Source: Escherichia coli
GTDB lineage: Bacteria; Pseudomonadota; Gammaproteobacteria; Enterobacterales; Enterobacteriaceae
Assembly: GCF_013315695.1 (NCBI RefSeq)
Contig: NZ_CP054353.1
Reading direction: 5' to 3' (one strand)
DNA: 64,000 nucleotides
Part shown: positions 20,601 to 23,325 of the stretch, piece after piece
Position numbering within the stretch: position 1 is the first letter of the stretch
Layout of the letters: each line of letters begins with the position of its first letter
Position numbers and translations under genes: made by a program
The notes under the pieces: model-generated
What the model was told of the DNA's origin: nothing
The model's database searches: none
Seen by the model: the letters and a program-made list of their open reading frames with translations, nothing else

Positions 20601-21218
20601 TTATTTAGCAAAATACCGATAGTGCCCCACCATCCGCCAGCTAAACAGTACATCTTCTTCCTGCGCGCCTGCGCCAATGTTATGTATCACCAGCGGCGTA
20701 CCGTCGCGGGCGAAGCCATCTGACACCACCCCAATATGTGCCAGCCCGTTATCTAATCGCCAGGAGACAATATCGCCCGATTGATAGTCACTGGGGTTCT
20801 TGCTGGTGGGGCGTGTTTTATCGTGGCGGGTAAACCAGGTTTCCAGATTAGGCACCCGACGGTGATCGATGTTGCTGTCCGGGCGCTTTAACTGCCATTT
20901 TTGCGGGTACGCAGCAAAATTCTTCGCCATATCTTCGTGCACCAGTTTCTGCAAATCGACCTTCTGGCTGCGCAATGCACGGATCACCACATCGGAACAT
21001 ACGCCGCGTTCTTGCGGGACATCACCGCCAGGATAGGTAAGCTGCACATACGCCGGATCGTAAAATAGCGTGCTGCCGATTTGCTGTCTGGCACCGTCTG
21101 CGATGGCAAGGTTGGTGTTGGCCTGGATCTGTACCACGGTTGGTGGAACGGCGGGAGATTTTAAGGAGTGGCTGGTAAATGCCGTTAGCAGGCTGACCAG
21201 CACCAGTGAAGCTTTCAT
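20601..21218 (-). CDS. yijF: DUF1287-family periplasmic protein YijF
   Basis: 205-aa ORF with signal peptide MKASLVLVSLLTAFTSHS; recognised as YijF. Confidence 0.8.
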   Translation of the reverse strand: MKASLVLVSLLTAFTSHSLKSPAVPPTVVQIQANTNLAIADGARQQIGSTLFYDPAYVQLTYPGGDVPQERGVCSDVVIRALRSQKVDLQKLVHEDMAKNFAAYPQKWQLKRPDSNIDHRRVPNLETWFTRHDKTRPTSKNPSDYQSGDIVSWRLDNGLAHIGVVSDGFARDGTPLVIHNIGAGAQEEDVLFSWRMVGHYRYFAK

Positions 21219-21367
21219 CTGGTTCGTCCGTGAAAATAAGAGTCACAGATTCGACCTTCCGGGCTAACGATTGTTCTGTAGAGAAAATGTCCAGAAGCGG
21301 ATAAAAAATTCCTGAACAACGTGGGAGTTTCAGACGGGTGATAACGTATAAAAAGTGCTCGAACAGT

Positions 21368-21548
21368 CCCCTCTCCCCTTTGGGGAGAGGGTTAGGGTGA
21401 GGGGAACAGGCCAACTCCGGGGCGAATATTTACCCTCACCCCGACCCTCTCCCTGAAAGGGCGAGGGGGAAAAACATGCCCGCAGTGACGAGTGAGCCAC
21501 TTTGCCTGCACTCTCAAACTCCCGGACAAGCCGGGAGTTTGGAGTAGG
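21368..21548. repeat. Cluster of GC-rich palindromic intergenic repeats (boxC/RIP-like)
   Basis: Perfect hairpin ccctctcccc-ttt-ggggagaggg (21369..21391); gggtgagggg (21395..21404) pairing with ccctcacccc (21433..21442); third ccctctccc copy (21445..21453); perfect palindrome aaactcccgg-acaag-ccgggagttt (21519..21543). Confidence 0.6.
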
Positions 21549-22652
21549 TTATTCCCACTCTTGCAGGAAACGCTGACCATACTGGTCGGCTACCAGCAGT
21601 GCGGCGTAAACCTGATCTGGCGTCGCGCCGCCAGGCATGTTGTGGATGGTTTCACCTTCTGCACATGCCGCTTCTGCCACAATTCGCATTTTCGCCGGGA
21701 CATCTTCTTTAATATCCAGTTGAGCGAGAGTTATTGGCAAACCTACCGCATGGCTAAGCGCAGCTACGGTTTCGATTTCCTCCACCGGCGCGTTTTCCAG
21801 CACCAGCTGCGTCAGCGTACCGAATGCTACTTTTTCACCATGATAATAGTGATGCGCGTCCGGGATAGCGGTCAGGCCGTTATGTACCGCGTGTGCCGCC
21901 GCCAGCCCGCCGCTTTCAAAACCAACACCGCTCAAATAGGTGTTCGCTTCAATCACGCGTTCCAGCGCCGGAGTCACTACATGCTGTTCGGCGGCAAGCA
22001 TCGCTTTTTCGCCTTCTTCCAGCAGAGTGTTGTAGCACAGTTCTGCCAGTGCCAGCGCCGCCTGGGTGCACTTGCCGCCCGCCATGGTGGTCGCGCCGCT
22101 ACGAGAGCAAGCACGCGCTTCAAACCAGGTTGCCAGCGCATCGCCGATACCCGCCGCTAACAGACGTGCAGGTGCGCCAGCGACGATTTTGGTGTCGACA
22201 ATGACCATATTCGGGTTATTTGGCAACATCAGATAGCGGTCAAATTCACCCTCATCGGTGTAGATAACAGACAATGCGCTGCACGGTGCGTCGGTAGAGG
22301 CGATAGTCGGTGCGATCGCTACCGGAACACCCATGAAATGTGCCAGTGCTTTGGCAGTATCGAGAGTTTTTCCGCCACCGATACCGAGAATTGCGCCACA
22401 CTGCGCAGTTTCCGCGATGCCACGCAGACGGTCGATCTCATTTTGCGAACATTCACCGCCAAACGGCGCAATTTCTACTACCAGTCCAGCATCTTTAAAG
22501 CTTTTCTCGACAGTGGATTGAGCAAAACCTAAAACAAATTTGTCACCCACCACTAACCAGCGTTCTGCCAGCGGCTTCAGGTATTCGCCCAGACGATTAA
22601 TCACATCAGCGCCCTGGATGTATTTACCCGGTGATTGAATAATGCGGTCCAT
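21549..22652 (-). CDS. gldA: Glycerol dehydrogenase (iron-containing ADH family)
   Basis: ORF 21549..22691; start trimmed to [24 protein letters not shown] giving 367 aa. Confidence 0.9.
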
Positions 22653-22662
22653 AATTGCTCCT

Positions 22663-23325
22663 TTAGAGATGAGTAGTGCCAAATGCGGCATTCCAGTCGT
22701 GTTCGAACTTCTCTATAGCTGACTCTACCGCAGGGGTGTTGAGCATTTGTTGCGCTACATCTAAGGGCAGGGTGATGGATTCACATCCTGCCAGTAAACA
22801 GTCCAGCGCCTGACGCGGCGTTTTAAAGCTGGCTGCCAGCACCATGCTTTCTGGCGCGTGCATTTCCAACAGCGCTTGCAGCTCCTGAACCGTACGAATG
22901 CCGTCACCGCCCTGGGCGTCGACGCGGTTAACATACGGAGCAACATATTTTGCCCCTGCCAGCGCGGCTAATAACCCTTGTGCGGCGCTATATACAGCGG
23001 TGCCAAGTGTAGTAATACCCTCTTTTTTCAGCATTTTAATGGCGGCAAGACCTTCGGAAGTTACCGGGATTTTCACCACAATGCCCGGAATGGCGTCGCG
23101 CAGGCGCTTCGCTTCTTCCACCATACCCTGCGCGTCACGACTCATGGTCTGAGCAAACAAAATACCCTCATCACCAATCGCTTTTTGCAGACGCGGCAGC
23201 ACTTCCCATATGGACTCCTTGCTGGCAGCGATAATGCTCGGGTTAGTTGTCACCCCGGCAATCGGGAATATGCGTGCCAGACGTTCGACTTCTGCGACGT
23301 TAGCGGTGTCCAGATACAGTTCCAT
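22663..23325 (-). CDS. fsaB: Fructose-6-phosphate aldolase 2 (transaldolase-like)
   Basis: 220-aa [36 protein letters not shown]; TalC/FsaB family. Confidence 0.9.

What the first reader, a model, noticed from the sequence alone, without database searches (positions are those of the whole stretch)
21368..21548. Dense cluster of GC-rich palindromes between gldA and yijF
Within about 180 bp there are at least four hairpin-forming elements: the perfect 10-bp stem ccctctcccc/ggggagaggg, a gggtgagggg/ccctcacccc pair separated by about 30 nt, a third ccctctccc copy, and the perfect palindrome aaactcccgg-acaag-ccgggagttt ending 6 bp from the gldA stop. The motif family resembles E. coli boxC/RIP-type repeats as I recall them. 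Such elements act as mRNA stabilisers, terminators or recombination substrates.
Basis: partly seen in the sequence, partly recalled or inferred. Interest (0 to 1): 0.3.

Follow-up and report, generated by a model that had tools for sequence, protein, structure and literature searches.

The report
Inverted BoxC repeat pair after gldA
The GC-rich palindromes are two copies, in opposite orientation, of a known dispersed E. coli repeat (BoxC, also called PIT or TMECO). In about 12% of E. coli genomes this pair replaces the REP repeat cluster (a BIME) that other strains carry downstream of gldA. A separate, conserved gldA 3' hairpin lies next to it, so the finding is real but ordinary.

Summary
It holds two unrelated things.

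1. **BoxC pair, window 21369-21467.** This is an inverted pair of BoxC/PIT/TMECO repeats. Both units match the published consensus CCCTCNCCC-N3-6-GGGNGAGGG-N3-GGGNGAGGG exactly: type A on the + strand, type B on the - strand.
   - The pair sits inside a 179-bp composite (21335-21513). That composite is 89% identical over 154 bp to the K-12 gcvP-ygfF BoxC pair.
   - In K-12, most other E. coli and all five outgroup Escherichia lineages examined, the same slot holds a REP/BIME. The BoxC pair is therefore a derived replacement.
   - It is present in 630 of 5426 complete E. coli genomes. Holder et al. 2015 already catalogued it at this locus in strain 042.

2. **Hairpin h1, window 21515-21541.** This is a locus-specific 11-bp stem-loop starting 7 nt after the gldA stop.
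   - It is conserved across Escherichia, with one compensatory base-pair change.
   - It is a direct repeat of a second hairpin (h2, 21306-21330). h2 is an intact intrinsic terminator in three outgroup lineages but has decayed in E. coli.

Published assays found no promoter or terminator activity for these elements; what is documented is local genomic instability. Verdict: already known, low interest.

The parts
21335..21513 (.). 179-bp BoxC-pair composite. This is the segment that replaces the K-12 REP/BIME between otherwise identical flanks.
   Evidence: Pairwise alignment with MG1655. A paralogue at K-12 gcvP-ygfF is 89% identical over window 21351-21504.
21335..21368 (+). A-side flank of the composite (cgGGTGATAACgtatAAAAAGTGCTCGaaCAGTC). 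It is conserved upstream of type-A BoxC units at other loci.
   Evidence: Comparison of 22 units, two from the window and twenty from 13 K-12 loci, and the alignment of five pairs.
21369..21404 (+). BoxC/PIT/TMECO unit, type A (second loop TTA), with a perfect Watson-Crick hairpin: CCCTCTCCC-CTTTG-GGGAGAGGG-TTA-GGGTGAGGG-G.
   Evidence: Regex of the published consensus. Identical to TMECO no. 514 of E. coli 042 in Holder et al. Suppl. Table S8.
21405..21431 (.). Spacer between the two units (AACAGGCCAACTCCGGGGCGAATATTT). It is conserved among four of the five pairs compared.
21432..21467 (-). BoxC/PIT/TMECO unit, type B (second loop TCG), with one mismatch in the hairpin: CCCTCGCCC-TTTCA-GGGAGAGGG-TCG-GGGTGAGGG-T.
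   Evidence: It differs by 1 nt from MG1655 TMECO no. 10.
21468..21513 (-). B-side flank of the composite. It is shared with the gcvP-ygfF paralogue but is not complementary to the A-side flank.
21515..21541 (-). h1: perfect 11-bp stem with a 5-nt loop, starting 7 nt after the gldA stop, with no U-run. It is conserved in both E. coli alleles and in four of the five outgroup Escherichia loci, with a G-C to C-G compensatory change in two of them; the fifth outgroup contig begins inside the intergenic region, so h1 is not covered there.
   Evidence: Not called as a terminator.
21303..21330 (-). h2: decayed direct-repeat copy of h1 (76% identical) followed by a U6 run. It is an intact intrinsic terminator in three outgroup lineages (E. 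whittamii, Escherichia sp. E1V33, SCPM-O-B-8794).
   Evidence: Direct repeat D1; outgroup alignment; folds (-11.5 to -18.9 kcal/mol in those outgroups, -3.7 kcal/mol here).
21549..22691 (-). gldA, the upstream gene of the tandem pair. The annotated CDS is 1104 nt, shorter than the mechanical ORF.
20601..21218 (-). yijF (DUF1287), the downstream gene of the tandem pair.

Best explanation
**What it is.** The cluster at 21369-21467 is an inverted pair of BoxC repeats, also published as PIT elements and as TMECO triplex motifs. A type-A unit lies on the + strand and a type-B unit on the - strand. They are embedded in a 179-bp composite repeat (21335-21513) that recurs elsewhere in E. coli genomes.

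**History at this locus.** The pair is a derived allele. In one part of the E. coli population (about 12% of complete genomes, including strain 042) it replaced the ancestral REP/BIME. That REP/BIME sat between two direct-repeat hairpins, h1 and h2, in the gldA-yijF spacer.

**How it probably behaves (inferred, not shown).**
- It is a structure-forming, probably selfish or neutral repeat.
- If transcription reads through h1, the gldA 3' region folds into a roughly 40-bp imperfect hairpin of about -70 kcal/mol. That could block 3' exonucleases or attract RNase III, much as the REPs it replaced are thought to do.
- In single-stranded DNA each unit can fold into the purine-motif intrastrand triplex shown in vitro for this family, and the pair could extrude as a cruciform.
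- Such structures, together with the internal 9-bp direct repeats, make the site prone to deletion and replacement.

**The fourth palindrome.** h1 (21515-21541) is not part of the repeat. It is a conserved gldA 3' stem-loop.
For: **Identity.**
- Both units match the published consensus exactly, and there are only these two matches in 64 kb (consensus from PMC4666352).
- The A+B inverted arrangement is the one reported for all five MG1655 pairs.
- The A unit is identical to TMECO no. 514 of E. coli 042. That copy maps between yijF and gldA in a 330-bp spacer differing at 3 positions from the window.

**Repeat family.**
- 5424 of 5426 genomes have matches, with a median of 16 places per genome.
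- The K-12 gcvP-ygfF paralogue is 89% identical over 154 bp.
- Flank and spacer are conserved across copies.

**Derived replacement.**
- K-12 has two REPs in the same slot between identical flanks.
- 630 of 5426 genomes carry the BoxC allele.
- Genomes without the BoxC allele carry the BIME or, in about 200 genomes, the BIME with an IS621 insertion.
- E. albertii, E. whittamii, Escherichia sp. E1V33, Escherichia sp. MOD1-EC7003 and the divergent SCPM-O-B-8794 all carry REPs there.

**Structure.** The pair folds at -70.6 kcal/mol on the - strand RNA (z = -6.2) and -72.3 kcal/mol on the + strand.

**Instability.**
- A 75-bp deletion between the CCCTCTCCC direct repeats at alx-sstT.
- A roughly 1-kb indel ending at the composite's edge at gcvP.
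- The published association with genomic instability.

**h1.** It is conserved with a compensatory pair change and folds at -25.5 kcal/mol here and -21.4 kcal/mol in E. whittamii.
Against: - No function has been shown for BoxC. Published assays found no promoter or terminator activity, no effect on RNA polymerase, and no in vivo triplex footprint (PMC4666352).
- Whether the pair is transcribed here is unknown. h1 lacks a U-run and h2 has decayed, so the gldA 3' end cannot be placed from sequence.
- The route by which the composite replaced the BIME is not established.
- Only part of the outgroup diversity was sampled: five lineages.
Confidence: 0.85

Rival explanations
1. It is a REP/BIME element of the RIP type (REP sequences plus an IHF site), as the first reader partly suggested.
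For: K-12 and all five outgroup Escherichia lineages carry REP sequences in exactly this slot. The location is therefore a REP site in most strains.
Against: - The window allele contains no REP sequence.
- The K-12 BIME segment has no match in the 64-kb window beyond 12-13-nt chance hits.
- A REP regex finds nothing.
- The aligned K-12 REPs are replaced wholesale.
Confidence: 0.02
2. It is a selected cis-regulatory RNA element of the gldA-yijF tandem pair. The roughly 40-bp hairpin would stabilise gldA mRNA and/or attenuate read-through into yijF, functionally replacing the REP pair.
For: - It sits between the gldA stop/h1 and the ancestral terminator h2, in what was the gldA 3' UTR in the outgroups.
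- The RNA structure is very stable.
- REPs between tandem genes act as partial terminators and stabilisers in a recent study (bioRxiv 10.64898/2026.03.23.713779), and this element took the place of REPs.
Against: - Published tests found no terminator or promoter activity and no effect on RNA polymerase for this family.
- Only about 12% of E. coli genomes have it here.
- No Rfam family matches. The only hits are sub-threshold miRNA-hairpin look-alikes.
- The same repeat occurs in every gene context.
Confidence: 0.15
3. The 179-bp composite is a non-autonomous mobile element (MITE-like). It inserted next to a terminator hairpin and displaced the BIME.
For: - A discrete composite with conserved flank and spacer recurs at several loci.
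- The allele boundaries coincide with the composite's ends and overlap them by 5 nt on each side: TCAGA and TCAAA.
- The A-side end abuts a stem-loop at four loci.
- There are presence/absence polymorphisms.
Against: - The outer flanks are not complementary beyond chance, so there is no clear terminal inverted repeat.
- The 25-nt direct repeats h1/h2 pre-exist in the BIME allele and in outgroups, so they are not a target-site duplication made by this insertion.
- No empty site was found.
- The element is nearly absent from phages (3 of 50,697 records) and rare on plasmids (291 of 72,556, some of them mislabelled chromosomes).
- No associated transposase is known, and Holder et al. found no link to mobile elements.
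Confidence: 0.2
4. It is a chance cluster of GC-rich palindromes with no family relationship.
For: None beyond the local GC-richness.
Against: - Fold z-scores of -6 to -8, with 0 of 200 shuffles as good.
- An exact consensus match twice.
- Thousands of paralogous copies across E. coli genomes.
Confidence: 0.01

Closest known systems
BoxC repeats = PIT (potential intrastrand triplex) elements = TMECO triplex motifs of E. coli (Bergler/Bachellier 1990s; Hoyne & Maher 2000-2002; Holder et al. 2015, PMC4666352)
   Same: - Exact consensus match for both units.
- Type A and type B second loops.
- The A+B inverted-pair arrangement with a spacer of about 27 nt.
- Intergenic position and multi-copy dispersal.
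- Strain-to-strain variability of the locus.
- This very locus is listed for E. coli 042 (TMECO no. 514).
   Different: Nothing essential differs. Three points go slightly beyond the published description.
- The A unit here has a perfect hairpin (CCCTCTCCC), whereas most K-12 type-A copies carry the CCCTCGCCC mismatch.
- At this locus the pair is allelic to a BIME rather than to an empty site.
- I find conserved flank and spacer sequence, so the repeated unit is about 180 bp, longer than the 36-nt motif or the 56-bp BoxC.
REP / BIME (including RIP) elements of E. coli
   Same: - The same genomic slot in other strains.
- Both are GC-rich extragenic palindromes downstream of a gene, able to form stable RNA hairpins.
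- Both are variable between strains, and both often lie in the same intergenic regions.
   Different: - There is no sequence relationship: no REP consensus here.
- No IHF-site linker.
- REPs have an associated RAYT transposase and documented terminator and stabiliser effects. BoxC has neither.
Rho-independent terminators (compared with hairpins h1 and h2)
   Same: h1 is a GC-rich perfect stem-loop just after a stop codon. In three outgroup lineages h2 is a stem followed by U6.
   Different: h1 has no U-run (GUUUGAGAG follows the stem) and was not called by the terminator scan. In E. coli the h2 stem has decayed to -3.7 kcal/mol.

Membership tests
BoxC / PIT / TMECO | Consensus 5'-CCCTCNCCC N3-6 GGGNGAGGG N3 GGGNGAGGG [G/T/C/-]-3' (Holder et al. 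2015) | tested here: met
   A regex of the consensus finds exactly two matches in the 64-kb window: 21369-21403 (+) and 21433-21467 (-).
BoxC / PIT / TMECO | Multi-copy, dispersed in the E. coli chromosome | tested here: met
   5424 of 5426 genomes have matches, with a median of 16 places per genome. MG1655 has 23 strict copies. Thirteen K-12 loci were fetched and confirmed.
BoxC / PIT / TMECO | Strictly intergenic location | tested here: met
   The pair lies between yijF (20601-21218) and gldA (21549-22691), as annotated in the 100%-identical record.
BoxC / PIT / TMECO | Second loop defines type A (TTA) or type B (CCG/TCG); inverted pairs combine one A with one B | tested here: met
   The window has A (TTA) on the + strand and B (TCG) on the - strand. 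The paper's Table 1 types TCG copies as B, and all five K-12 pairs are A+B.
BoxC / PIT / TMECO | Isolated strand folds into a purine-motif intrastrand triplex in vitro | not testable with these tools
   No triplex energy model is available. CD and NMR evidence exists for oligonucleotides of types A and B, with and without the mismatch (PMC4666352). Those differ from the window units only in loop or mismatch positions.
REP / BIME / RIP | Presence of REP (PU) palindromes such as GCCGGATGCGGCGTGAACGCCTTATCCGGCCTAC | tested here: not met
   The K-12 BIME segment has no significant match in the window, the REP regex finds nothing, and the alignment shows the REPs replaced.
REP / BIME / RIP | IHF-binding linker between two inverted REPs (RIP/BIME-1) | not tested
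   Not applicable once REPs are absent. The K-12 allele has an AT-rich linker (AAATTCAATATATTG) that I recall as IHF-like, but I did not test this.
Intrinsic terminator (hairpin h1, 21515-21541) | GC-rich stem-loop immediately followed by a U-run | tested here: not met
   The stem-loop is present at -25.5 kcal/mol, but the tail is GAGAGUGC. It was not called by the scan.
MITE-like mobile element (179-bp composite) | Terminal inverted repeats | tested here: not met
   The outer flanks 21335-21367 and 21471-21513 align no better than shuffles: score -5 against a mean of -1.8, sd 4.8. Only a weak 'SAGAnTG..CAAAG' resemblance is seen at the extreme ends.
MITE-like mobile element (179-bp composite) | Target-site duplication created on insertion | tested here: not met
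   The flanking direct repeats h1/h2 are already present around the BIME in K-12 and in outgroups.
Any Rfam RNA family | Match reaching the family's gathering score | tested here: not met
   Only sub-threshold miRNA-precursor look-alikes were found (best 31.6 bits against a gathering score of 83). These reflect a generic long hairpin.

The most novel reading that the evidence does not exclude
The roughly 180-bp BoxC-pair composite, rather than the 36-nt motif, may be the true unit of spread. It may share its landing sites with REP/BIMEs, directly after terminator-type stem-loops. It may swap with them as a cassette by a copy-and-paste route such as template switching or microhomology-mediated conversion.

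Hints for this reading:
- 5-nt junction overlaps (TCAGA and TCAAA) at both ends of the replaced segment.
- The recurrent end motif CAGAcTGATGACAA next to stem-loops at four loci.
- A near-identical motif beside the REP in two outgroup lineages that have no BoxC.

If true, this would give the first mechanistic handle on how BoxC elements spread, and would link them to the BIME 'mosaic' system.
Probability: 0.15. Interest if true: 0.45.

Novelty: already known. Interest (0 to 1): 0.15.

Why it matters
It matters little beyond good annotation. The element belongs to a repeat family described in the 1990s and studied again in 2000-2002 and 2015. The copy at this locus is already listed for E. coli 042.

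Three points may be useful:
- The gldA-yijF spacer is a clean natural three-allele series: BIME, BIME with IS621 inserted, and BoxC pair. The flanks are otherwise conserved. This is a ready-made system for comparing what REPs and BoxC pairs do to a tandem gene pair.
- The repeated unit appears to be a composite of about 180 bp, not just the 36-nt triplex motif.
- Automated gene callers should not call the spurious ORFs that run through it, for example the 56-aa ORF at 21330-21500 on the - strand.

Tried and rejected
- **Rfam scan** with permissive thresholds. It returned only sub-threshold miRNA-hairpin look-alikes, so I rejected them as generic long-hairpin matches.
- **Promoter/terminator scan**. 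It found no promoter-like site. The single terminator-like site (21492-21479, - strand) is within chance expectation (0.6 expected) and is not conserved in the gcvP-ygfF paralogue, so I rejected it.
- **Terminal inverted repeats** of the composite. They are not better than shuffles.
- **The flanking 25-nt direct repeat as a target-site duplication.** I rejected this because the repeat predates the BoxC allele.
- **TGATGACAA as a window-wide signal**. The single other occurrence is inside a coding region and is consistent with chance. A genome-wide test was not possible with the tools.
- **An 'empty site' allele at gldA-yijF.** I did not see one in 60-row spread samples of 5426 genomes, nor in five outgroup lineages.
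- **Later literature on BoxC/PIT function**. I found nothing beyond citations of Holder et al. 2015.
- **Automatic alignment of h1 across species**. It is shifted by the 4-nt versus 5-nt loop, so I read the compensatory change directly from the sequences and the folds rather than from pair counts.

Full report
**Setting.** The window is E. coli chromosome. ORFs and a 100%-identical public record (NZ_OZ547117.1) place katG, yijE, yijF (20601-21218, - strand), gldA (21549-22691, - strand), fsa and ptsP around the finding. The finding lies in the 330-bp spacer between the tandem genes gldA and yijF.

**Observation.**
- CCCTCTCCCC/GGGGAGAGGG at 21369-21378 / 21382-21391, perfect, with a 3-nt loop.
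- GGGTGAGGGG at 21395-21404 and CCCTCACCCC at 21433-21442.
- A further CCCTCTCCC at 21445-21453, paired with GGGCGAGGG.
- The perfect palindrome CAAACTCCCGG-acaag-CCGGGAGTTTG at 21515-21541, ending 7 nt from the gldA stop codon.

The region folds far better than shuffles (-117.7 against -78.9 +/- 5.0 kcal/mol, z = -7.8). The first three 'hairpins' are really the parts of two 36-nt units in inverted orientation. Together they form a 101-bp imperfect palindrome with 39-nt arms, 82% complementary.

**Identity of the units.** A literature search led to Holder et al. 2015 (PMC4666352). That paper equates BoxC (1990s), PIT elements (Hoyne and Maher 2000-2002) and its own 'TMECO' motif. It gives the consensus 5'-CCCTCNCCC N3-6 GGGNGAGGG N3 GGGNGAGGG[GTC-].
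- A regex of that consensus finds exactly two matches in the 64-kb window, at 21369-21403 (+) and 21433-21467 (-).
- The + unit has the TTA second loop, so it is type A.
- The - unit has TCG, which the paper's Table 1 types as B.
- The paper reports 23 copies in MG1655, always intergenic. Five are inverted pairs, and every pair combines one A with one B. That is the arrangement seen here.
- An independent survey lists BoxC as a known E. coli stem-loop family of 56 bp and 32 copies (PMC2267715).
- Rfam has no matching family.

**The repeated unit is larger than the motif.** Searching the 179-bp allele-specific segment (21335-21513) against 5426 complete E. coli genomes gives matches in 5424, with a median of 16 places per genome.
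- K-12-type genomes lack this allele. Even so, their best match covers window 21351-21504 at 89% identity. It is the gcvP-ygfF pair, TMECO 10+11.
- Aligning five pairs shows two conserved stretches: the spacer (GAACAGGCCnGCAnnGGnGCGAATATTTA) and about 35 nt upstream of the A unit (..GATGACAAnnnnnAAAAAGTGCTCGnnCAGTC).
- The same A-side flank and the start of the spacer also accompany solo type-A units in K-12.
- The hrpB-mrcB pair and the ilvC-ppiC solo B unit form a second sub-type with a shorter spacer.
- The two outer flanks are not complementary to each other beyond chance. The composite is therefore not a full-length palindrome and has no clear terminal inverted repeats.

**Alleles at this locus.** MG1655 has a 274-bp spacer with identical flanks, but two inverted REP sequences (a BIME) lie where the window has the composite.
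- 630 of 5426 genomes (11.6%) carry the BoxC allele.
- Genomes without the BoxC allele carry the BIME.
- In about 200 genomes the match breaks off exactly at the left boundary; the one I examined has IS621 inserted in the second REP.
- E. coli 042 carries the BoxC allele with 3 differences in 330 bp. Its A unit is TMECO no. 514 in Holder et al.'s Supplementary Table S8. One of the three differences breaks the strict consensus in its B unit, which explains why only one unit is listed there. The copy at this locus is therefore already in the literature.

**Ancestral state.** A scan of one genome per species with YijF returned five non-window Escherichia lineages: E. albertii, E. whittamii, Escherichia sp. 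E1V33, Escherichia sp. MOD1-EC7003 and a divergent 'E. coli' SCPM-O-B-8794. All have REP sequences in the spacer and none has a BoxC unit. By parsimony the BIME is ancestral and the BoxC pair is a derived replacement within E. coli.

**The two flanking hairpins.** The palindrome next to gldA (h1, 21515-21541) is present in both E. coli alleles and in four of the five outgroup loci; the MOD1-EC7003 contig begins inside the intergenic region, so its h1 side is not covered.
- In E. whittamii and SCPM the apical pair is changed on both sides (CCCGG/CCGGG to CCCGC/GCGGG) and the stem is kept. It folds at -21.4 kcal/mol there against -25.5 kcal/mol here.
- h1 has no U-run and was not called by the terminator scan.
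- On the yijF side of the cassette lies a 76%-identical direct repeat of h1 (h2, 21306-21330; D1), followed on the - strand by U6.
- In three outgroup lineages (E. whittamii, Escherichia sp. E1V33, SCPM-O-B-8794) h2 is a clean stem plus U6, at -11.5 to -18.9 kcal/mol. In K-12 and in the window it has decayed to -3.7 kcal/mol.
- So the repeat slot, BIME or BoxC pair, lies between the gldA stop/h1 and what was originally the gldA intrinsic terminator. That places it in an ancestral 3' UTR. This last step is my inference from sequence; no transcript data were available.

**How it probably works.**

Shown:
- Family membership, the inverted-pair anatomy, the allelic replacement and the stable predicted folds (-70.6 kcal/mol on the - strand RNA, -72.3 kcal/mol on the + strand).

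From the literature:
- Isolated strands form an intrastrand triplex in vitro.
- No in vivo triplex footprint was found.
- No promoter or terminator activity was found, and no effect on RNA polymerase.
- TMECO loci are more rearranged between strains than control sites.
- Pairs tend to suffer partial deletions that leave a single hairpin.

My comparisons agree:
- At alx-sstT, strain CD306 has a 75-bp deletion exactly between the two CCCTCTCCC direct repeats.
- At gcvP, the pair lies at the edge of a roughly 1-kb indel that includes ygfF.

Inferred:
- If read through from gldA, the pair would form a roughly 40-bp imperfect RNA duplex. It could act like the REPs it replaced. REPs were recently shown to be context-dependent partial terminators and stabilisers between tandem genes.
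- In DNA, the pair and its internal direct repeats (21369-21391 and 21445-21467) make the site prone to slippage and replacement.
- I consider a dedicated, selected function unlikely.

**How the replacement happened is unresolved.**
- The segment that differs from K-12 coincides with the composite as defined by the paralogue. It overlaps the composite's ends by 5 nt on each side: TCAGA and TCAAA.
- The A-side end motif CAGAcTGATGACAA abuts a stem-loop at four loci.
- A near-identical GAGACTGATGACAAG lies between h1 and the REP in two outgroup lineages without BoxC.
- These hints could point to a cassette-like exchange between BoxC composites and BIMEs. However, there is no terminal inverted repeat, no target-site duplication and no empty site.
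- The element is almost absent from phages and rare on plasmids.

**Verdict.** The finding is real and is not a chance cluster. It is an already described repeat family in an already catalogued position, next to an ordinary conserved 3' hairpin.

Noticed in passing
L009:6610-7590 (E. coli 2014C-3061; equivalent to the window spacer 21335-21513): In about 200 of 5426 E. coli genomes the match breaks off at the left cassette boundary. The one examined carries IS621 (IS110 family) inserted in the second REP of the BIME allele between yijF and gldA. The same spacer therefore exists in three forms: BIME, BIME with IS621, and BoxC pair.
   Followed up: partly
window 20601-21218 (yijF); loci L012-L082: Close relatives of YijF (DUF1287), at 92% identity or more, were found only in Escherichia. 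The next best hits, at 61% or less, are in Acidobacteria, Chryseobacterium, Acinetobacter and Verrucomicrobia. This patchy distribution suggests horizontal acquisition by the Escherichia lineage.
   Followed up: no
window 21303-21330 (- strand); L012-L014 equivalents: The hairpin h2 is an intact stem plus U6 intrinsic terminator in E. whittamii, Escherichia sp. E1V33 and SCPM-O-B-8794. It has decayed in E. coli, both in K-12 and in the window (-3.7 kcal/mol). The true 3' end of gldA mRNA in E. coli is therefore unclear from sequence.
   Followed up: partly
L013:2216-2262 and L014 equivalent (between h1 and the REP): E. whittamii and 'E. coli' SCPM-O-B-8794 carry GAGAC(T/C)GA(T/A)GACAA(G/A) next to h1. 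It closely resembles the A-side end motif of BoxC composites (CAGACTGATGACAA), although these genomes have no BoxC at the locus. This remains unexplained.
   Followed up: partly
L003/L006 (K-12 gcvP-ygfF) against L010 and L011 (ATCC 25922, O157:H7): ygfF and the adjacent BoxC pair are absent as one block of about 1 kb in ATCC 25922 and O157:H7, which have a REP between gcvP and bglA instead. Homology with K-12 ends directly after the gcvP terminator U-run, at the composite's A-side end.
   Followed up: yes
L007 (K-12 alx-sstT) against L084 (CD306) and L085 (Z1323CEC0013): CD306 has a 75-bp deletion exactly between the two CCCTCTCCC direct repeats of the BoxC pair, leaving one hairpin. Z1323CEC0013 has an unrelated GC-rich segment of about 430 bp in place of the whole composite.
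   Followed up: partly
L088, L089, L091 (K-12 frlR-yhfS, pstB-pstA, fimH-gntP): Three of the eight solo BoxC loci fetched from K-12 have a REP sequence within about 70 bp of the unit. This suggests that the two repeat families favour the same intergenic sites.
   Followed up: no
phage records MG065686.1 and MG065691.1 (hits H206, H207): Two Campylobacter phage records contain a BoxC-pair-like stretch at 88% identity to the window composite. This is odd for that host and may reflect contamination or chimeric assembly.
   Followed up: no
window 1-64000: Neither a REP regex nor a blastn-short search with the K-12 BIME found any REP-like sequence elsewhere in the 64-kb window. That seems sparse for E. 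coli, but the search used only two REP variants.
   Followed up: no
window 21330-21500, 21392-21580 and 21022-21414 (- strand): Mechanical ORFs of 56, 62 and 130 aa run through the repeat and give 'PLSPKGRG'-type translations. They are almost certainly spurious and are the kind of ORF that gets mis-annotated as a hypothetical protein.
   Followed up: no
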